27,591 nucleotides of DNA, taken from UHGV virus genome UHGV-0217794, one strand, 5' to 3'. This stretch comes from a virus. The notes below the pieces were generated by a model. It saw only the letters and a program-made list of their open reading frames with translations, was not told where the DNA came from and ran no database searches. Positions 1 through 6,220 of this stretch are shown here, one piece after another. A program made the position numbers and the translations under genes. Each line of letters begins with the position of its first letter. Position 1 is the stretch's first letter.

Positions 1-240
1 TGATGTAAAACCGCAAATGGGGCACGTAACGGGAATTTTGAAAAGCGTTTCTCCGGGTTCCAGAACAAAATTTTCTGCGGTCTGATTTTGCTTCTCATAT
101 TTGTGCTCCGCGTCATTGTGAGAGCACATTCTTATTCTGAGTGCCTGTTTAAACTCACTGAAGCTGAGAGCTTCTTCGCCTTCGGCAAGACCTTCGAAGT
201 ATTCTTCGTAAGCCTTTTCCATGATTGTGTCGAAATCCAT
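1..240 (-). CDS. hypothetical leftward early-operon protein, partial (ATG at 238-240, runs off the window edge; at least 80 aa; contains CPICG motif)
   Basis: Open reverse frame from ATG at 240 with AGGTGA Shine-Dalgarno upstream, overlapping the stop of the preceding small ORF; no stop before position 1. Confidence 0.5.
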   Translation of the reverse strand, partial: MDFDTIMEKAYEEYFEGLAEGEEALSFSEFKQALRIRMCSHNDAEHKYEKQNQTAENFVLEPGETLFKIPVTCPICGFTS

Positions 241-241
241 A

Positions 242-397
242 TCACTCACCTGAGTTTCTTTCCAGCCAGCGACGGGCACCATTTTCGGTTTTAAACGTTT
301 TGCTTTTGGTATATGTCATCGCGGTGAACGTACCGTCCTGGTTGGGGAACACGCCACATACCAGAGATTCGCTGTTGCCAAGATCGATAGTATCCAT
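242..397 (-). CDS. small protein, 51 aa (MDTIDLGNSES...), first gene of the leftward operon next to the repressor
   Basis: ATG at 395-397 preceded by GAGG; stop at 242-244; same position and size as the small ydfA-type ORFs beside dicA in Qin-like prophages (positional inference only). Confidence 0.45.
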   Translation of the reverse strand: MDTIDLGNSESLVCGVFPNQDGTFTAMTYTKSKTFKTENGARRWLERNSGE

Positions 398-511
398 GCT
401 GACCTCATTTCCCCTTAACGCCGGGGTCGCGGAACTGTTTGCTGAGAACACCGTGCGGTGTCTTGATGGAAAGTAATTTAGAATAACCTAACACGAGAGG
501 CAAGTGTTTTT

Positions 512-529
512 TGTTAGATTGATCTAACA
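512..529. promoter_or_regulatory. operator-like perfect palindrome TGTTAGA-N4-TCTAACA between the repressor gene and the leftward operon
   Basis: Perfect inverted repeat read directly from the sequence; same half-sites as the palindrome at 1023-1040. Confidence 0.55.
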
Positions 530-565
530 AAAAGAGTGGGCGCAACTAATCACTTGAAAAGAATG

Positions 566-973
566 TTATTTTATTGATTTATTTTTACGCGCTTTAAGCA
601 TTTCTTCGAAGAGTTTGTTGAAGTTTTCTACTCTTGCGCGCATTTCAGACAGCAAGGCTTCCTGCTCGGAAGATGGAAGAGCATCGAATAATTCGATCAA
701 TTCTTTGTGGTTGGGAGTTAGCTCTGTTTCCACATGAAGTTCTTGTGCAGGCACTGGTGCCTTGTCTTCGTCACCAAACATTAGCCATGTAGGTGAGCAC
801 TTCAGAGCATCCGCTAAAGCAAACAATCGTTTTCCGACTGGCTGGGTTTCGTCTCTTTCCCATTGTGAAATTGTGACGTGAGCAACTCCAGCGAGGCGCG
901 CAGCTTCTCGTTGTGTTAAGCGTAATTCTTTTCGTCGCGCCAGAACTCGCTGGCCTAGGGTTCTTGTATCCAT
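566..973 (-). CDS. dicA: HTH-XRE family prophage repressor, DicA-like (135 aa)
   Basis: Translation has the N-terminal HTH (LTQREAARLAGVAHVTISQWER) and C-terminal FALADALKCSPTWLMFGDEDK ... MRARVENFNKLFEEMLKAR, closely matching my recollection of E. coli DicA; same 135-aa length; divergent from a cro-like gene. Confidence 0.9.
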   Translation of the reverse strand: MDTRTLGQRVLARRKELRLTQREAARLAGVAHVTISQWERDETQPVGKRLFALADALKCSPTWLMFGDEDKAPVPAQELHVETELTPNHKELIELFDALPSSEQEALLSEMRARVENFNKLFEEMLKARKNKSIK

Positions 974-995
974 AGTTAGGTAATTCTAATTTTTC

Positions 996-1040
996 TTGAC
1001 TTAGGTATCCCGCGCACAATAATGTTAGAAAAGTCTAACA
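996..1040 (+). promoter_or_regulatory. rightward early promoter (-35 TTGACT 996-1001, -10 AATAAT 1018-1023) overlapped by operator palindrome TGTTAGA-aaag-TCTAACA (1023-1040)
   Basis: Near-consensus sigma70 hexamers with 16-nt spacer immediately upstream of the dicC-like gene; perfect 7-bp half-site inverted repeat overlapping the -10/+1 region. Confidence 0.6.
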
Positions 1041-1053
1041 AGAGGGGGCTTTG

Positions 1054-1281
1054 ATGCTTAAAGTTGACGCAATTACTTTTTTTGGCAGCAAAACAAAGCT
1101 TGCCAATGCCGCAGGAGTGAGACTGGCAAGTGTTGCTGCTTGGGGGATACTGGTTCCTGAAGGTCGCGCGATGCGTCTACAGGAGGCATCTGGCGGGGAG
1201 CTTCAGTATGATCCCAAAGTTTATGACGAATATCGTAAGACGAAGCGGGCGGGGCGGTTGAACAATGAAAATCACTCCTGA
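1054..1281 (+). CDS. dicC: Cro-like regulator, DicC-like (75 aa from ATG 1054)
   Basis: FFGSKTKLANAAGVRLASVAAW ... GRAMRLQEASGGELQYDPKVYDEYRK matches my recollection of E. coli DicC; divergently transcribed from the repressor; AGAGGGGG RBS upstream. Confidence 0.85.
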   Translation: MLKVDAITFFGSKTKLANAAGVRLASVAAWGILVPEGRAMRLQEASGGELQYDPKVYDEYRKTKRAGRLNNENHS

Positions 1282-1786
1282 ACAGGCTCGTGAGGCTCTG
1301 GATGCCTGGATATGTCGACCAGGAATGACACAGGAGCAGGCGACGATATTAATCACTGAAGCATTCTGGGCTTTGAAAGAGCGCCCGAACATCGATGTTC
1401 AGCGTGTCACATATGAAGGTGGCGCGGTTGATCAGCGAGCGCTTAGCGTTAATCGAGTGAAGATATTCGAACGCTGGAAGGCTATCGACACCAGGGATAA
1501 GTGTGAAAAGTTCACAGCGCTAGTGCCTGCAATTATGGAGGCTATCCGGATTAGTGATTTCAGGTTGTATCGTGAGATCAGTGATGGTAAAAGTATTACG
1601 TACATGATCGCCGGGTTAAATAAAGAATATGGCGATGTGGTGGAATCCGGACTGCTTTTTGCAGATCCTGCCGTTGTAGATCGTGAAACTGACGAACTTA
1701 TAGAAAAAGCAATTGCTTTCAAGCTTGCGTATCGACAGCAATACCAACAAAAAGCTGGATGGAATTATGAGTCTTCTTTTTGCTGA
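1265..1786 (+). CDS. putative early regulatory protein (YdaT/CII-like by position), 173 aa
   Basis: ORF overlapping the dicC-like stop, occupying the slot right after the cro-like gene; family assignment is by position and weak resemblance only. Confidence 0.4.
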   Translation: MKITPEQAREALDAWICRPGMTQEQATILITEAFWALKERPNIDVQRVTYEGGAVDQRALSVNRVKIFERWKAIDTRDKCEKFTALVPAIMEAIRISDFRLYREISDGKSITYMIAGLNKEYGDVVESGLLFADPAVVDRETDELIEKAIAFKLAYRQQYQQKAGWNYESSFC

Positions 1787-2732
1787 ACGCCCACTGGTTA
1801 TAAACACGCAGCTGGCAATGAAAATCGGCTTAAACGAAGCCATTGTTTTGCAACAACTGCACTACTGGTTGAGAGATACCAACTCCGGTATGGAATGTGA
1901 TGGTGTTCGCTGGATTTATAACACAACGGAACAATGGCTGGAACAGTTCCCATTCTGGTCAGAGTCAACGTTAAAGCGCGCGTTTGCAAGTCTGAAAACG
2001 CTGGGGCTTTTGCGTTGTGAAAAGCTCAATAAATCAAAGCGCGATATGACCAATTTCTACACGATCAACTATGGGAGCGAGCTTTTAGATGGTGGCAAAT
2101 TGAACGAATCCATCGGTTCAAAATGCGCTGCTCCATCAGGTCAAAATGACACGATGGAAGAGGTCAAAATGAAACGCTCCATTGGTTCAAAACGATCCAA
2201 TGTCATCGGGTCAAAATGGCCTGATGATCTTACAGAGAATACAACAGAGATTACTACAGAGAATAAAAACACTTTTCGTCCGGAAGCTTCGCAACCGGAC
2301 CCGCAGACGACTGAACAGGATTTTTTAACCCGGAACTCCGACGCGGTTGTGTTTAGTGCGAAAAAACGCCAGTGGGGTAGCAGGGAGGATTTGGCGTGTG
2401 CGCAGTGGATCTGGGGGCGGATCGTGGGTCTCTACGAACAGGCAGCCAGTGATGATGGCGAGATCATGCGACCAAAAGAGCCTAACTGGACTGCCTGGGC
2501 CAATGACGTGCGCACAATGCGGATGCTGGATGGCAGAAGCCACAGACAAATTTGCGAAATGTTTGGTCGGGTTCAGCGAGATCCATTCTGGGTAAAAAAC
2601 ATCATGAGCCCGTCAAAGCTCCGCGAAAAATGGGACGAACTGGTCATCCGCCTGGGACGTTCACCTGTACAGCGTTGTGTTAATCATATTTCTGAACCGG
2701 ATACAGAAATTCCGCCTGGTTTCAGAGGATAA
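1767..2732 (+). CDS. replication initiator / replisome organizer (O-like N-terminal domain, DnaT-like C-terminal region), about 321 aa from ATG 1767
   Basis: N-terminal PLVINTQLAMKIGLNEAIVLQQLHYWL motif typical of phage replisome-organizer N-domains; internal direct DNA repeats (iterons) inside the coding sequence; C-terminal RDPFWVKNIMSPSKLREKWDELV resembles DnaT-type C-termini. Confidence 0.7.
   Translation: MSLLFAERPLVINTQLAMKIGLNEAIVLQQLHYWLRDTNSGMECDGVRWIYNTTEQWLEQFPFWSESTLKRAFASLKTLGLLRCEKLNKSKRDMTNFYTINYGSELLDGGKLNESIGSKCAAPSGQNDTMEEVKMKRSIGSKRSNVIGSKWPDDLTENTTEITTENKNTFRPEASQPDPQTTEQDFLTRNSDAVVFSAKKRQWGSREDLACAQWIWGRIVGLYEQAASDDGEIMRPKEPNWTAWANDVRTMRMLDGRSHRQICEMFGRVQRDPFWVKNIMSPSKLREKWDELVIRLGRSPVQRCVNHISEPDTEIPPGFRG
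2112..2275. repeat. putative origin of replication: five direct iterons (core GGT(T)CAAAA(T/C)G at about 2115, 2139, 2162, 2184, 2208; roughly 23-bp period) followed by an A-rich tract with three ACAGAGA repeats (2231-2275)
   Basis: Repeats read directly from the sequence; they sit inside the initiator gene and encode a repeated IGSK peptide, as ori-lambda sits inside gene O. Confidence 0.6.
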
Positions 2733-2772
2733 GTGTTGATTTCAGGTCATGAGGTAATTTTAAGGGGGACTT

Positions 2773-3264
2773 GTGGCAAAAGTTTTTACACAAGAAGAGC
2801 GGGAAAAAATTAAAGGGCAGGTGGTGGAACTCGTGCGCCAGAGCGGTCGTGAGACGTTACGGCAACTGGAAGCTAAAACAGGTGCGACTAGATATCTGAT
2901 GAGCGTTCTTGCCAGAGAGCTGGTAGCCAGTGGCGATGTATACAACTCCGGCTACGGGTTATTCCCGTCTGAACAGGCGCGTAAGGACTGGCAACACGCC
3001 CGCAAAAAACTCTCGAGGGCAAAGGTGAAGAAACCTGCTGTGGTTGATCCGGACCTTATCTGGTCATTACCTGACGGAGAAATACGCCGCTACGACAGTC
3101 GCCTAAACATAATCTGTCGCGAGTGCCGGAAGACTGAAGTTATGCAGCGTATACTCGCATTCTATCAGGGAAATGTTCGATATCTATTGAAGCGACGAGT
3201 AGCGCGCAGGGATAAGAGGGATGGTCCCTTAAAGGGGAGAGCTAATTATCCGGAAGGATTCTGA
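2773..3264 (+). CDS. hypothetical protein, 163 aa (GTG start)
   Basis: ORF with AAGGGGGA RBS upstream of GTG 2773; no recognisable family; sits where a helicase loader (P/DnaC-like) would be in lambda. Confidence 0.55.
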   Translation: MAKVFTQEEREKIKGQVVELVRQSGRETLRQLEAKTGATRYLMSVLARELVASGDVYNSGYGLFPSEQARKDWQHARKKLSRAKVKKPAVVDPDLIWSLPDGEIRRYDSRLNIICRECRKTEVMQRILAFYQGNVRYLLKRRVARRDKRDGPLKGRANYPEGF

Positions 3265-3515
3265 TGATGAACATCGAAGAACTGCGTAAAATTTTTTGTG
3301 AAGATGGCCTCTATGCTGTGTGCGTTGAAAATGGAAATCTTGTTAGTCATTACCGCATTATGTGTTTGCGAAAGAATGGGGCTGCGTTAATTAATTTTGT
3401 GGATGGTCGAGTGACAGACGGATTTATCTTGCGCGAAGGTGAGTTTGTCACTTCATTACAGGCACTGAAAGAGATCGGAATAAAAGCAGGCTTTTCAGCT
3501 TTTGCAGAAGAATAA
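3264..3515 (+). CDS. hypothetical small protein, 83 aa
   Basis: ATG overlaps the upstream stop (TGATG), suggesting translational coupling; no recognisable family. Confidence 0.5.
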   Translation: MMNIEELRKIFCEDGLYAVCVENGNLVSHYRIMCLRKNGAALINFVDGRVTDGFILREGEFVTSLQALKEIGIKAGFSAFAEE

Positions 3516-3581
3516 ACTCATCTACAATCTTGCGCGGGGCTGAACTCCCGCTGAGTAACACCGTGCCACCGGAGAAAACCG

Positions 3582-3860
3582 ATGGCACGCAACGTAAAAT
3601 ATTACAATTCTGATAATTCGCCCGTTCTTGCCTGCACGCACGAGCGGTATTCTCACGCATTCAAGTCTGAATGGTTCCAGCACCCTCCATGCACTGAAGA
3701 GCAGGCTGAATGGATAATTCAGTGTTACCGCAGGCGCGGATACGAGGTTAAGAAAGCCCTTAGTCTCGACTACCGTCACTGGATAATCTCAGTCAGATTG
3801 CCTTACTCCGAACGCCCACCGCGTCCGTCCCGTACATTCCAGCAACGCATCTGGAGGTAA
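3582..3860 (+). CDS. hypothetical small protein, 92 aa
   Basis: ATG 3582 with GGAGA RBS 6 nt upstream; no recognisable family. Confidence 0.5.
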   Translation: MARNVKYYNSDNSPVLACTHERYSHAFKSEWFQHPPCTEEQAEWIIQCYRRRGYEVKKALSLDYRHWIISVRLPYSERPPRPSRTFQQRIWR

Positions 3861-3861
3861 C

Positions 3862-4911
3862 GTGCGGGTATTACTTCGACCTGTTCTGGTACCGGAACTC
3901 GGGCTGGTGGTCGTTAAGCCGGGCCGTGAATCCATGCCGGTATTCCACAATACCCGGTTACTGGTGGAGCCGGAACCGAAAAGCATGCGTAATCTGCCGT
4001 CCGGGGTCGTTCCTGCCGCTCGCCAGCCGCTGGTGGAAGACAAAACATTGCTGCCGTTTTTCAGTAACGCACGGGTGATTCGTGCTGCTGGTGGTGCTGG
4101 TGCATTGTCTGACTGGCTGTTGCGCCATATTAAATCCTGCCAGTGGCCACACGGCGATTATCATCACAGCGAAACCGTCATTCACCGTTATGGTACCGGC
4201 GCAATGGTGTTGTGCTGGCACTGCGACAACCAACTGCGTGACCAGACATCCGAATCACTCGAGCAACTTGCTCATCAAAACCTGTCAGCATGGATGATTG
4301 ACGTCATCGGTCACGCAATAAGCGGTACGCAGGAGCGTGAATTATCTCTGGCTGAATTATCCTGGTGGGCGGTCCGCAATCAGGTGGCGGACGCGCTACC
4401 GGAAGCGGTATTACGTCGTTCGCTGGGGTTGCGTGCGGAAAAAATCCGCTCAATGTACCGTGAAAGCGACATCGTACCGGGAGAGCAGACCGCCACCAGC
4501 ATACTGAAACAGCGCACAAAAAATCTTGCACTGTTGCCTCACGCCCACCAGGAACAACACCCACTACAGGAAAAGACGGTGGTAAGCATTGCCGTTGATC
4601 CTGAGTCTCCGGAATCTTTTATGAAACGACCTAAACGTCGCCGCTGGGTTAACGAGAAATACACACGCTGGGTGAAGACACAGCCGTGTGCGTGTTGTGG
4701 TAAGCCAGCCGACGATCCCCATCACCTGATTGGTCATGGTCAGGGCGGAATGGGGACAAAATCTCACGATATTTTCACGCTACCGCTGTGTCGGGAGCAT
4801 CACAACGAGCTTCATGCGGATCCGCTGGCGTTCGAAGAAAAGCATGGTTCTCAGGTTGATTTAATCTTTCGTTTTCTTGATCACGCCTTTGCAACTGGCG
4901 TGCTTGGGTAA
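3862..4911 (+). CDS. DUF968/YdfU-like protein with C-terminal Cys/His (HNH-like) motif, 349 aa
   Basis: C-terminus CACCGKPADDPHHLIGHGQGGMGTKSHDIFTLPLCREHHNELH; same size and position as Qin prophage YdfU (before rusA and Q); GTG start with GGAGG RBS. Confidence 0.65.
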   Translation: MRVLLRPVLVPELGLVVVKPGRESMPVFHNTRLLVEPEPKSMRNLPSGVVPAARQPLVEDKTLLPFFSNARVIRAAGGAGALSDWLLRHIKSCQWPHGDYHHSETVIHRYGTGAMVLCWHCDNQLRDQTSESLEQLAHQNLSAWMIDVIGHAISGTQERELSLAELSWWAVRNQVADALPEAVLRRSLGLRAEKIRSMYRESDIVPGEQTATSILKQRTKNLALLPHAHQEQHPLQEKTVVSIAVDPESPESFMKRPKRRRWVNEKYTRWVKTQPCACCGKPADDPHHLIGHGQGGMGTKSHDIFTLPLCREHHNELHADPLAFEEKHGSQVDLIFRFLDHAFATGVLG

Positions 4912-4923
4912 AAGAGGTGACTG

Positions 4924-5298
4924 ATGCTCATAGATTTGGTTTTACCTTACCCGCCGACGGTGAACACTTACTGGCGACGCCGTGGCAGCACATATTTTAT
5001 CTCGGAGGAGGGAAAGCGTTATCGCCGGGCTGTGGCGCTTATTGTTCGCCAGCAGCGGCTGAAATTAAGCCTGTCCGGAAGGCTGGCGATAAAGGTGATT
5101 GCAGAGCCACCGGATAAGCGTCGTCGCGACCTGGACAATATCCTGAAAGCACCGCTGGATGCGCTGACGCATGCGGGAGTGTTAATGGACGATGAGCAGT
5201 TTGATGAAATCAATATCGTTCGTGGTCAGCCAGTATCTGGTGGACGTCTGGGGGTGAAGATTTACCCCATAATGCATGAAGAGCAGGTCAAAAAATGA
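4924..5298 (+). CDS. rusA: crossover junction endodeoxyribonuclease RusA (Holliday junction resolvase)
   Basis: 124-aa protein starting MLIDLVLPYPPTVNTYWRRRG with conserved acidic residues (RRDLDNILKAPLDAL); AAGAGGTGA RBS; typical position just upstream of Q. Confidence 0.88.
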   Translation: MLIDLVLPYPPTVNTYWRRRGSTYFISEEGKRYRRAVALIVRQQRLKLSLSGRLAIKVIAEPPDKRRRDLDNILKAPLDALTHAGVLMDDEQFDEINIVRGQPVSGGRLGVKIYPIMHEEQVKK

Positions 5299-6116
5299 AA
5301 CTGGAAGATTTACCGAAATACTACTCCCCAAAATCCCCTTGCCTGACCGATGCATCGGCCTCAACGTCAAAAGATGCGCTGAGTATCACTGATGTGATGG
5401 CCGCGCAGGGCATGACACAGAATCGGGCTGAGATGGGGTTTTCTGCGTTCCTGGGGAAAATGGGCATCAGTATGAATGACAGGGCGCGGGCAACAGAATT
5501 ACTGGCAGATTATGCACTCAGTCGGTGCGATCGTGTGGCGGCGTTGAGAAAACTTCCGGCAGAAATAAAACCGGTAGTGATGCGCATTATGGCTTCGTAC
5601 GCTTTTGAGGATTATGCCCGCAGCGCAGCGAGTAAAAAGCAGTGCCCTTGTTGCTATGGGGAAAAATTTATTGAAAGCGTAGTTTTTACAAACAAGGTCC
5701 AGTATCCGGATGGTAAGCCGCCGGTATGGGCAAAGTGTACGAAAGGTGTGTATCCGTCTTACTGGGAAGAATGGAAAAAAGTCAGGGAGGTGGTAAAAGT
5801 TGCCTGTCCGGAGTGTGGCGGAAAGGGTGAGGTTTCCACCGCCTGTAAGGATTGCCGTGGGCGTGGTGTCGCCATTCACCGTGAAGAGTCGGTAAAACGT
5901 GGTATGCCTGTTATCAGAGACTGCCAGCGTTGTGGTGGTCGTGGCTATGAAAGACTACCATCAACGGAGGCATTTAATGCTATATGCGAGGTGACAAACC
6001 AGATAACACGCGCGTCATGGGAAAAAACAGTTAAGAAATTCTATGATGCGCTGGTGACCCGGTTTGATATTGAAGAAGCATGGGCTGAGCGGCAGTTAAA
6101 AAAGGTAACTAGGTAA
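5295..6116 (+). CDS. late-gene antiterminator, Q family (non-lambda type, multiple CxxC zinc motifs)
   Basis: 273-aa protein with CPCC...C and CPECGGKG...CKDCRGRG...CQRCGGRG motifs; ATGA overlap with rusA; directly followed by a promoter-terminator unit and the late region. Confidence 0.8.
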   Translation: MKLEDLPKYYSPKSPCLTDASASTSKDALSITDVMAAQGMTQNRAEMGFSAFLGKMGISMNDRARATELLADYALSRCDRVAALRKLPAEIKPVVMRIMASYAFEDYARSAASKKQCPCCYGEKFIESVVFTNKVQYPDGKPPVWAKCTKGVYPSYWEEWKKVREVVKVACPECGGKGEVSTACKDCRGRGVAIHREESVKRGMPVIRDCQRCGGRGYERLPSTEAFNAICEVTNQITRASWEKTVKKFYDALVTRFDIEEAWAERQLKKVTR

Positions 6117-6120
6117 CAAG

Positions 6121-6160
6121 GTTGATTTTTCCGGAATCTGTGGTAAATTCATCATAATGA
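6121..6160 (+). promoter_or_regulatory. candidate late promoter (PR'-like) / Q-utilisation region: -35 TTGATT (6122-6127), -10 TAAATT (6144-6149)
   Basis: sigma70-like hexamers directly downstream of Q and about 50 nt upstream of an intrinsic terminator, the lambda PR'-qut-tR' layout; the -10 match is weak. Confidence 0.35.
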
Positions 6161-6198
6161 TGGGCTTTTTATGCCTGACGTTAGAAGAGTTTCTACAA

Positions 6199-6220
6199 CC
6201 CGCCGCCGAGCGGGTTTTTT
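6199..6220 (+). terminator. intrinsic terminator (tR'-like): stem CCCGC/GCGGG followed by six T
   Basis: GC-rich hairpin CCCGCcgccgaGCGGG followed by TTTTTTATT, read directly. Confidence 0.6.

What the first reader, a model, noticed from the sequence alone, without database searches (positions are those of the whole stretch)
2112..2275. Iteron-type replication origin embedded in the initiator gene
Five direct repeats with core GGT(T)CAAAA(T/C)G at about 23-bp spacing lie inside the replication-initiator coding sequence and encode a repeated IGSK peptide. They are followed by an A-rich tract with three ACAGAGA repeats. This is the ori-lambda-within-O architecture with different iteron sequences, so the phage likely has its own initiator/origin specificity.
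Basis: partly seen in the sequence, partly recalled or inferred. Interest (0 to 1): 0.5.

Follow-up and report, generated by a model that had tools for sequence, protein, structure and literature searches.

The report
Phage replication origin inside initiator gene
The repeats are real and are almost certainly the replication origin of a Qin/lambda-like prophage, sitting inside its own initiator gene; this is a textbook layout, but here in a widespread initiator family that databases still call "hypothetical protein".

Summary
Confirmed. Five GKTCAAAAYG cores lie at 2116-2218, spaced 23-24 bp (0.36 expected by chance). A sixth, degenerate copy lies at 2088-2110. Three 12-bp TACAGAGAnTA repeats follow at 2231-2266. 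All sit inside a 321-aa O-like initiator gene (1767-2732).

The cores fall in all three reading frames. Synonymous sites are conserved in the array and almost frozen in the 12-mers. The encoded peptide (aa 110-175) is predicted to be disordered. The constraint is therefore on the DNA.

In 68 of 84 loci with the same N-domain, from Enterobacterales to Staphylococcus and Lactobacillaceae, the same order recurs: winged-helix domain, semi-palindromic iterons at 22-24 bp, then CAGAGA 12-mers. Residue 67 of the predicted recognition helix tracks the iteron arm (S-GGT, D-GGG, K-GGA, N-ACC, M-TAT), which argues for direct binding.

The N-domain is not lambda-O type. Its fold is RepA_N/DnaD-like. The C-domain is lambda-O-like. 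There is no P, DnaC or DnaB gene, and the protein ends in a DnaT-like tail.

Verdict: an ordinary architecture and a new member of a known kind, with some interesting side leads. Nothing was tested experimentally.

The parts
1767..2732 (+). Replication initiator gene (321 aa, O-like). It contains the origin.
   Evidence: ORF list. PHROG 391 'replication initiation O-like', E=1.4e-91. No Pfam or NCBIfam family. Annotated 'DNA replication protein O' or 'replication initiation O-like protein' in 96-99% identical phages.
1767..2081 (+). Coding region of the N-terminal winged-helix DNA-binding domain (aa 1-105). The predicted recognition helix is aa 66-78, and S67 is the predicted specificity residue.
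2088..2110 (+). Iteron 0, degenerate in this phage (GATGGTGGCAAATTGAACGAATC).
   Evidence: It is in register 23 bp upstream of iteron 1. Relatives have an intact GAGGTCAAAGTGA here.
2111..2133 (+). Iteron 1 (CATCGGTTCAAAATGCGCTGCTC).
2134..2156 (+). Iteron 2 (CATCAGGTCAAAATGACACGATG), the most palindromic and most conserved copy.
   Evidence: Core identity among relatives is 0.98.
2157..2179 (+). Iteron 3 (GAAGAGGTCAAAATGAAACGCTC).
2180..2202 (+). Iteron 4 (CATTGGTTCAAAACGATCCAATG).
2204..2226 (+). Iteron 5 (CATCGGGTCAAAATGGCCTGATG).
2227..2275 (+). AT-rich (71%), purine-skewed tract holding three 12-bp repeats: TACAGAGAATAC, AACAGAGATTAC and TACAGAGAATAA at 2231-2266. Proposed unwinding and helicase-entry element.
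   Evidence: The least stable 40-mer inside the gene is 2230-2269 (dG -44.3 against a window mean of -55.7, sd 4.3), as in lambda O. Third-codon identity is 0.97. Glu is GAG in 129 of 129 cases. The element is shared with O genes that have unrelated N-domains.
2352..2648 (+). Coding region of the C-terminal domain, homologous to the lambda O C-terminal domain.
   Evidence: BLASTP against lambda O: 34% identity, E=1e-26, aa 142-294 against 130-270. Helical in the AF2 model.
2667..2729 (+). C-terminal tail ...VQRCVNHISEPDTEIPPGFRG, matching the last 20 residues of E. coli DnaT.
   Evidence: PDB sequence hits 2ru8, 6aep and 9zbt_D. NCBIfam DnaT model positions 160-179. The tail anti-correlates with helicase or loader genes downstream.
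996..1023 (+). pR-like promoter upstream of cro-cII-initiator. Its transcript runs through the origin.
   Evidence: 10 of 12 consensus match. Gene order cI(-)/cro/cII/O.

Best explanation
Window 2088-2275 is the vegetative (theta) replication origin of a Qin/lambda-like temperate phage. It is embedded in the linker-coding part of the phage's own initiator gene.

Inferred mechanism: the pR-type transcript produces the initiator. Its N-terminal winged-helix domain, probably as a dimer, binds each semi-palindromic iteron (core GGTCA-AAA-TGAcc). S67 at the start of the recognition helix reads the arm base next to the invariant CA/TG. Five to six sites spaced 23 bp apart assemble a nucleoprotein complex. 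That complex destabilises the adjacent AT-rich tract of three 12-bp CAGAGA repeats, where the host DnaB helicase enters.

The phage encodes no helicase or loader. The C-terminal part, a lambda-O-like domain plus a DnaT-like tail, is proposed to recruit host machinery.

Shown here: the anatomy, the DNA-level selection, and the co-variation between N-domain and iteron. Inferred: binding, unwinding and helicase recruitment.
For: (1) The repeats are far beyond chance and regularly spaced.
(2) The constraint is on the DNA. The cores lie in three reading frames. Third-codon identity among 10 enterobacterial relatives is 0.82 in cores, 0.79 in spacers and 0.97 in the 12-mer tract, against 0.56 in the N-domain and 0.59 in the next linker stretch. 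The encoded aa 110-175 are predicted disordered, with pLDDT 23-30. In peptide-defined T-E-x-T repeats, Glu is GAG in 129 of 129 cases against 46% elsewhere in the same genes.
(3) The layout matches the annotated ori-lambda. Lambda has 4 iterons spaced 20, 24 and 23 bp at 39-48% of O, followed by the least stable 40-mer of the gene. Here the array is at 34-48% of the gene and is followed in the same way.
(4) 68 of 84 loci with this N-domain have at least 2 NNNCANNNTGNNN cores at 22-24 bp spacing right after the domain; CAGAGA 12-mers follow the iterons in 59 loci. Arm complementarity is 0.63 against 0.42 +/- 0.013 in shuffles.
(5) Specificity co-varies. Residue 67 carries 1.41 of 1.73 bits of information about the arm class. 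Among N-domains at least 70% identical, a different residue 67 means a different arm in 46 of 46 pairs. S-GGT recurs in an E. coli phage and a Staphylococcus caprae prophage only 51% identical.
(6) The N-domain fold is closest to RepA_N initiator NTDs, including one solved on its iteron DNA. RepA_N iterons are described as semi-palindromic repeats converging on a poly-A tract (PMC7145576), lying centrally in the rep gene (PMC5703833).
(7) Isolated viable phages carry this module at 96-99% identity. In the one complete genome listed in full (HannyBb) it is the only annotated replication gene.
Against: There is no experimental evidence for binding, unwinding or autonomous replication. I found no paper describing this origin. 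The iterons in this window are less palindromic than in relatives; their right arms vary. The co-variation statistics are not corrected for phylogeny. The AF2 model is of modest quality (mean pLDDT 60, shallow alignment). Some Bacillaceae relatives of the N-domain show no obvious iterons or 12-mers, so the architecture is not universal. The role of the 12-mers as an unwinding element is by analogy only, and their conservation could also reflect a recombination junction.
Confidence: 0.85

Rival explanations
1. The repeats are initiator-binding sites used only for control, such as autoregulation, a transcriptional roadblock or handcuffing. The true start site of replication lies elsewhere in the phage genome.
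For: Iterons in plasmids serve both initiation and control (established knowledge; PMC4980987 was listed but not read). The sites lie inside the initiator's own transcript.
Against: No further iteron copies occur elsewhere in the window beyond chance. The array always sits next to the least stable tract of the gene and the conserved 12-mers, which is the iteron-plus-unwinding-element arrangement of known origins. Both lambda and the RepA_N plasmids with this layout initiate there (PMC5703833).
Confidence: 0.07
2. The repeats are a protein-level repeat (IGSK and TENTTEITTE) in a flexible linker. The DNA similarity is a by-product and has no cis-acting role.
For: Three copies do encode IGSK. The 12-bp period is a multiple of 3 and always encodes T-E-x-T in one frame.
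Against: The five cores occupy all three frames. Synonymous positions are conserved. GAG is used in 129 of 129 cases and ACA/ACT in 229 of 230. The peptide is predicted disordered. Iteron arms keep dyad symmetry and co-vary with a recognition-helix residue.
Confidence: 0.03
3. The palindromic units act as RNA hairpins in the initiator mRNA, affecting translation or stability.
For: RNA folding of 2085-2280 gives a z-score of -2.95, with hairpins on iterons 2, 4 and 5.
Against: There is no Rfam match. The hairpins are the expected by-product of dyad-symmetric protein sites. The arm sequence tracks an amino acid of a DNA-binding helix. The invariant CA/TG and the A-tract centre match RepA_N-type DNA sites (PMC7145576). 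Copies 1 and 3 are poor hairpins.
Confidence: 0.03

Closest known systems
Bacteriophage lambda O protein and ori-lambda (and the Stx-phage O/ori variants with six iterons, PMC7466680)
   Same: The origin lies inside the initiator gene, between the DNA-binding N-domain and the C-domain. There are 4-6 direct repeats with internal dyad symmetry and a TCAAAAYGA-like centre, spaced 20-24 bp, followed by an AT-rich purine-skewed tract that is the least stable part of the gene. The C-terminal domain is homologous (34% identity, E=1e-26). The context is the same: cI / cro / cII / initiator transcribed from a pR-like promoter.
   Different: The N-domain is not in the Phage_rep_O family (PF04492/TIGR01610). 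It gives no Pfam or NCBIfam hit and hhalign probability is 0.05%. The iteron arms differ (GGTCA...TGACC against CCCTC...GAGGG). No P gene follows. The protein has a DnaT-like tail that lambda O lacks. The tract after the iterons is an ordered 12-bp repeat.
RepA_N theta replicons of Gram-positive plasmids (pSK41, pTZ2162) and Vibrio PLE RepA
   Different: There is no sequence match to Pfam RepA_N, and identity in the structural alignments is 12-16%. Here the replicon is a temperate phage of Enterobacteria, with a lambda-O-type C-domain instead of a DnaG-binding one. The CAGAGA 12-mers are not part of the published RepA_N description as far as I read.
E. coli DnaT (primosomal protein I), extreme C-terminus only
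   Same: The last 20 residues are nearly identical: VNHISEPDTEIPPGFRG against VNTVSEPDSQIPPGFRG.
   Different: Nothing else is similar. The whole-protein score is 16 bits against a cut-off of 201. The function of this DnaT tail is not stated in the papers read (PMC13377028, PMC4132743).

Membership tests
ori-lambda type origin (lambda O / ori) | Origin repeats lie inside the initiator ORF, between the N-terminal DNA-binding domain and the C-terminal domain | tested here: met
   The array at 2088-2226 is at 34-48% of ORF 1767-2732. It encodes aa 108-153, within the predicted disordered linker aa 110-175. Lambda's array is at 39-48% of O.
ori-lambda type origin (lambda O / ori) | Four or more direct repeats of about 18-19 bp with internal dyad symmetry, spaced about 20-24 bp | tested here: met
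   There are 5 copies plus 1 degenerate copy, spaced 23-24 bp. The dyad symmetry is partial here and clear across the family. Lambda spacing is 20, 24 and 23 bp.
ori-lambda type origin (lambda O / ori) | AT-rich, easily melted, strand-asymmetric tract immediately after the last iteron | tested here: met
   2227-2275 is 71% AT and 61% purine. The least stable 40-mer of the gene is 2230-2269. Lambda is 77% AT and 70% purine at the same relative position.
ori-lambda type origin (lambda O / ori) | Initiator N-domain belongs to Phage_rep_O (PF04492 / TIGR01610) | tested here: not met
   No Pfam hit at E<=0.01. No NCBIfam hit, while lambda O scores 5.4e-39. hhalign probability is 0.05%.
ori-lambda type origin (lambda O / ori) | C-terminal domain homologous to the lambda O C-domain (the P-binding part) | tested here: met
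   34% identity over 153 aa, E=1e-26.
ori-lambda type origin (lambda O / ori) | P-type (or other phage-encoded) helicase loader gene next to the initiator | tested here: not met
   The next genes are DUF977/Ren-like, an unknown gene, DUF968/HNH, RusA and Q. No helicase or loader is annotated in the complete genome of HannyBb or in the flanks of relatives.
ori-lambda type origin (lambda O / ori) | Initiator binds the repeats, and the fragment supports autonomous replication | not testable with these tools
   Only indirect evidence: co-variation between residue 67 and the iteron arm.
RepA_N-type replicon | Sequence membership in Pfam RepA_N (PF06970) | tested here: not met
   No Pfam family at E<=0.01.
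RepA_N-type replicon | N-terminal winged-helix domain of the RepA_N/DnaD-NTD fold | tested here: inconclusive
RepA_N-type replicon | Semi-palindromic direct repeats converging on a poly-A tract, located centrally within the rep gene | tested here: met
   GGTCA-AAA-TGAcc cores lie centrally in the gene. The feature is as described in PMC7145576 and PMC5703833.
RepA_N-type replicon | Central linker encoded by the origin is dispensable for protein function; the C-domain is host-specific | not testable with these tools
   The linker is predicted disordered. C-domains are swapped among relatives that keep the same N-domain and iterons. Dispensability needs an experiment.
DnaT (primosomal protein I) | Full-length match to the DnaT family model | tested here: not met
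   16.4 bits against a cut-off of 201. Only model positions 160-179 align.

The most novel reading that the evidence does not exclude
Two things go beyond 'another iteron origin'.

(a) The 12-bp (T/A)ACAGAGAnTAC repeats may be a previously undescribed, cross-phylum origin element. They follow the iterons of at least three unrelated initiator N-domain classes, and their synonymous codons are frozen from E. coli to Staphylococcus. They would act as the sequence-specific unwinding or helicase-entry site.

(b) In Enterobacterales these initiators carry a mimic of the DnaT C-terminal tail. This tail may plug the origin complex directly into the host restart primosome or the DnaB-DnaC pathway, so that a single phage protein suffices for replication.

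In addition, residue 67 would be a simple, re-programmable determinant of origin specificity.
Probability: 0.3. Interest if true: 0.7.

Novelty: new member of a known kind. Interest (0 to 1): 0.4.

Why it matters
It gives a function and a cis-acting site to a gene that RefSeq calls 'hypothetical protein'. The origin segment is present in 1957 of 5426 complete E. coli genomes, including B strains such as BLR(DE3) and E. coli C.

Origin and initiator specificity determines which co-resident lambdoid prophages can cross-activate or interfere with one another.

The family-wide regularities offer simple, testable handles on how phage initiators choose their origin and how they recruit a helicase without a loader. 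These regularities are a one-residue specificity code, a conserved 12-mer element, and a DnaT-like tail that replaces a loader gene.

Tried and rejected
- Literature: full-text searches for the iteron and 12-mer sequences, and for the tail motif, found nothing relevant. A search on lambdoid iterons returned lambda and Stx work only.
- Remote homology of the N-domain to the lambda O N-domain was rejected (hhalign probability 0.05%).
- A sequence search of the PDB with the protein and with a 38-sequence profile found no solved homologue. It gave only the DnaT tail and weak PadR-like winged-helix matches.
- Rfam gave no hit in 1000-3500.
- No sigma-70-like promoter or terminator lies in the array. 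No DnaA box lies near it.
- Extra iteron copies elsewhere in the window are at chance level.
- My first GAG-codon test was circular, because the motif used to find the repeats required GAG. I redid it with repeats defined on the peptide only.
- I tried to learn what the DnaT tail binds from PMC13377028, PMC13220808, PMC8509808 and PMC4132743. None states it.
- A Pfam scan through alignment A4 was not run, because it would not give per-locus results. I used local clustering plus representative scans instead.

Full report

Yes. GKTCAAAAYG occurs five times in the 27,591-bp window, all on the + strand, at 2116, 2139, 2162, 2185 and 2209. Chance expectation is 0.36, and none of 100 shuffles reached five. 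The repeat finder recovers 23-nt units spaced 23, 23, 23 and 24 bp. A sixth unit at 2088-2110 is degenerate here (GTGGCAAATTGA) but intact in relatives (GAGGTCAAAGTGA). Three 12-bp repeats follow at 2231, 2243 and 2255 (TACAGAGAATAC, AACAGAGATTAC, TACAGAGAATAA). The motif occurs 4 times in the window against 0.40 expected.

Everything lies inside ORF 1767-2732 (321 aa), which matches PHROG 391 'replication initiation O-like' at E=1.4e-91. Only copies 1, 4 and 5 therefore encode IGSK.

**2. Context**

The gene order is a cI-like repressor (566-973, minus strand), a pR-like promoter (996-1023), a cro-like gene (1051-1281), a cII/YdaT-like gene (1265-1786), the initiator, DUF977/Ren-like (2773-3264), DUF968-HNH, RusA, a Q-like gene, and then late genes.

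The region is 96-99% identical to the isolated phages PhiR42_1, HannyBb and mEp460_ev081, which annotate the gene as replication protein O or O-like.

The 196-bp origin segment is present in 1957 of 5426 complete E. coli genomes, including E. coli B strains such as BLR(DE3) and C2566, and E. coli C. There it sits in a Qin-type prophage (dicB, ydfD, hokD, rem), and the gene is called 'hypothetical protein'. Pfam and NCBIfam have no model for the protein.

**3. Is the constraint on the DNA or on the protein?**

It is on the DNA, for four independent reasons.
- The cores are kept in all three reading frames.
- Among ten enterobacterial relatives, third-codon-position identity is 0.56 in the N-domain and 0.59 in the linker stretch after 2268. 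It is 0.82 in the iteron cores, 0.79 in the spacers and 0.97 in the 12-mer tract.
- The AF2 model predicts aa 110-175 to be disordered (pLDDT 23-30). This stretch is encoded by nt 2094-2291, which covers almost all of the array (2088-2226) and the whole 12-mer tract. The flanking domains are folded.
- I defined the T-E-x-T repeats on the peptide alone in 47 loci. In them Glu is GAG in 129 of 129 cases, against 46% elsewhere in the same genes. Thr is ACA or ACT in 229 of 230 cases. This also holds in low-GC hosts. An earlier version of this test was circular and was discarded.

**4. Comparative anatomy**

A pattern search with the N-domain alignment returned 80 loci. They span Enterobacterales, Pseudomonas, Acinetobacter, Psychrobacter, Staphylococcus, Lactobacillaceae, Bacillaceae, Thermomicrobiales and others. 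With the window and three phage loci (L002, L003, L007) added, 84 loci were analysed.

In 68 of the 84 loci, at least two NNNCANNNTGNNN cores lie 22-24 bp apart immediately after the N-domain coding part. CAGAGA-type 12-bp repeats follow in 59 loci.

The outer 3-bp arms differ between lineages but stay complementary. Examples are GGTCAAAATGACC, GGGCAAATTGCCC, GGACAATCTGTCC, GATCAAAATGATC, TATCAAAATGATA, ACCCAAAATGGGT and CGACAGATTGTCG. Arm complementarity is 0.63 against 0.42 +/- 0.013 in shuffles. This is the signature of a two-fold-symmetric protein site.

**5. Evidence that the N-domain reads the repeats**

The alignment column with the most information about the arm class is window residue 67, in the motif FPFWSE-S-TLKR. 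It carries 1.41 of 1.73 bits. The pairings are S with GGT, D with GGG, K with GGA, N with ACC and M with TAT.

Among N-domains at least 70% identical elsewhere, a different residue 67 goes with a different arm in 46 of 46 pairs, and the same residue goes with the same arm in 115 of 145 pairs. For example, Pantoea prophages 85-89% identical differ D/K at this position and have GGGCA against GGACA arms. The S-GGT pairing recurs in the E. coli phage and in a Staphylococcus caprae prophage only 51% identical. Staphylococcal relatives with S-V-M instead have TATCAAAATGATA.

In the AF2 model, residue 67 is at the N-terminal end of helix 66-78. This is the second helix of a helix-turn-helix and is followed by a beta-hairpin wing. 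These statistics are not corrected for phylogeny. The close-pair and cross-phylum cases reduce that concern but do not remove it.

**6. What family is it?**

The N-domain is not of the lambda O type. It gives no PF04492 or TIGR01610 hit, whereas lambda O scores 5.4e-39, and hhalign probability is 0.05%.

The published description of RepA_N replicons fits closely. pSK41 Rep is 319 aa. Its NTD binds four Rep boxes that lie centrally within the rep gene. The central part of the protein is a linker encoded by the origin. The CTD is host-specific (PMC5703833). [quoted passage not shown]

By sequence, however, Pfam RepA_N is not matched. The C-domain is homologous to that of lambda O (34% identity, E=1e-26). 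The protein is therefore a mosaic: a RepA_N/DnaD-like winged helix with its own iterons, a shared 12-mer tract, a lambda-O-type C-domain and a short tail.

Relatives show the same modularity. Klebsiella and Pantoea phages keep the N-domain and iterons but carry a Phg_2220_C-type C-domain.

**7. Direct comparison with ori-lambda**

In the annotated lambda record, the four iterons start at 39034, 39054, 39078 and 39101, giving spacings of 20, 24 and 23 bp. They lie at 39-48% of gene O. The least stable 40-mer of the gene follows immediately (77% AT, 70% purine).

Here the array lies at 34-48% of the gene. The least stable 40-mer of the gene is 2230-2269 (dG -44.3 against a window mean of -55.7, sd 4.3; 71% AT, 61% purine). 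Both iteron types share a TCAAAAYGA centre.

Strict family membership fails on two features: the N-domain and the missing P gene.

**8. The 12-mers**

The tract is the best conserved DNA of the gene. It is shared at 97.5% identity over 40 bp with the O genes of Stx phages, and the one examined in detail (Stx2_14040) has an unrelated N-domain. That gene has its own 23-bp-spaced iterons (AAACCCNNTTTCG) followed by the same CAGAGA repeats. A third class (phage 606R7) has GTCACG iterons followed by ACAGATAAAGAT three times.

The element is therefore independent of the iteron-reading domain. I interpret it as the unwinding and helicase-entry element. This rests on analogy with the 13-mers of oriC and of iteron plasmids, which is established knowledge and was not tested here. 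A role as a recombination junction for module exchange is not excluded.

**9. Helicase recruitment (a side lead, partly followed)**

No P, DnaC or DnaB gene follows the initiator here or in close relatives. The complete genome of phage HannyBb has no other annotated replication gene.

The protein ends in VNHISEPDTEIPPGFRG, which is nearly identical to the last residues of E. coli DnaT. Relatives with unrelated C-domains keep an (I/V)PxGFR(G/S) tail.

Across 78 loci, none of the 25 tail-bearing initiators has a DnaB, DnaC/IstB or lambda-P gene among the next two genes. Among tail-less initiators, 27 of 53 do (Fisher 1.7e-6, not corrected for phylogeny).

The papers I read do not say what this part of DnaT contacts (PMC13377028 and others). 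The partner therefore remains open; PriA, PriB and DnaB-DnaC are candidates.

**10. Rival explanations**

- A purely protein-level repeat is contradicted by the results in section 3.
- RNA hairpins give a fold z-score of -2.95. They are the expected by-product of dyad-symmetric sites and would not explain the link to a DNA-binding helix. There is no Rfam hit.
- Control-only binding sites, with the origin elsewhere, cannot be excluded without experiments. This is unlikely, given that the melting-prone 12-mer tract is always adjacent and no other iteron cluster exists.

**11. Verdict**

It is an ordinary, well-known architecture, and counts as a new member of a known kind.

Its modest extra value lies in four points:
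- naming a very common 'hypothetical' E. coli prophage gene;
- the one-residue specificity correlation;
- the cross-phylum 12-mer element;
- the DnaT-like tail.

All functional steps (binding, unwinding, helicase loading) are inferred.

Noticed in passing
window 2667-2729 (aa 301-321 of the initiator): The C-terminal tail VQRCVNHISEPDTEIPPGFRG is nearly identical to the last 20 residues of E. coli DnaT. An (I/V)PxGFR(G/S) tail is kept in relatives with unrelated C-domains. It is mutually exclusive with a DnaB, DnaC or P gene downstream: 0 of 25 tail-bearing loci against 27 of 53 tail-less loci.
   Followed up: partly
window 2231-2266; also L006 2508-2552, L008 1928-1963 and 59 loci: The 12-bp-period (T/A)ACAGAGAnTAC repeats follow the iterons of at least three unrelated initiator N-domain classes, in hosts from E. 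coli to Staphylococcus and Lactobacillaceae. Their synonymous codons are frozen (GAG in 129 of 129 cases).
   Followed up: partly
window 1965-1967 (codon of S67) and the same column in 68 loci: A single residue at the start of the predicted recognition helix tracks the iteron arm base triple: S-GGT, D-GGG, K-GGA, N-ACC, M-TAT. The data suggest a simple specificity switch.
   Followed up: yes
window 2670-2800: The tail-coding end of the initiator gene, the intergenic spacer and the start of the DUF977/LygF gene are 91-95% identical in DNA to phages whose initiator is otherwise unrelated (606R7, Evi, Tritos). A mosaic junction therefore lies inside the initiator gene. A second junction is the 40-bp 12-mer tract shared with Stx phages.
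   Followed up: partly
window 2773-3264: The gene in the position of lambda P is a DUF977/Ren-like ('LygF') winged-helix protein, not a helicase loader. Klebsiella and Pantoea relatives have a Dam methylase or a PerC-like gene there instead, so the initiator has no conserved partner gene.
   Followed up: partly
window 1-6200 as a whole; L089: The early region is a Qin-type prophage module (dicB, ydfD, hokD, rem and DUF968 neighbours in BLR(DE3)). The origin segment occurs in 1957 of 5426 complete E. coli genomes, and RefSeq annotates the initiator as 'hypothetical protein'.
   Followed up: yes
L070 (Shigella flexneri CP182557) about 3050-3230: This copy has a 1-bp insertion in iteron 1 (GGTTCAAAAATG) and a broken reading frame (30-aa ORF). 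It is apparently a decaying prophage copy of the same module.
   Followed up: no
L010, L011, L057, L068, L071: Contigs labelled Veillonella, Bacillota, Collinsella, Nocardioides and Micromonospora carry sequences identical or near-identical to the E. coli or staphylococcal phage module. Contamination or mis-binning of those assemblies is likely.
   Followed up: no
window 1265-1786 / 1767: The cII-like gene (Pfam YdaT_toxin, PHROG 'CII-like activator') overlaps the initiator start by 20 bp. Several database entries (P0001, P0002, P0004; 448 aa, PF06254) match the initiator over 99% of its length and also carry the YdaT domain, which is probably an annotation or frameshift artefact.
   Followed up: no
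L053, L055, L056, L061-L063, L069 (Bacillaceae): These relatives of the N-domain show no clear iterons or 12-mers after the domain, and their proteins end in acidic EDF-x-FDDE tails. They may place their origin elsewhere or use a different site type.
   Followed up: no
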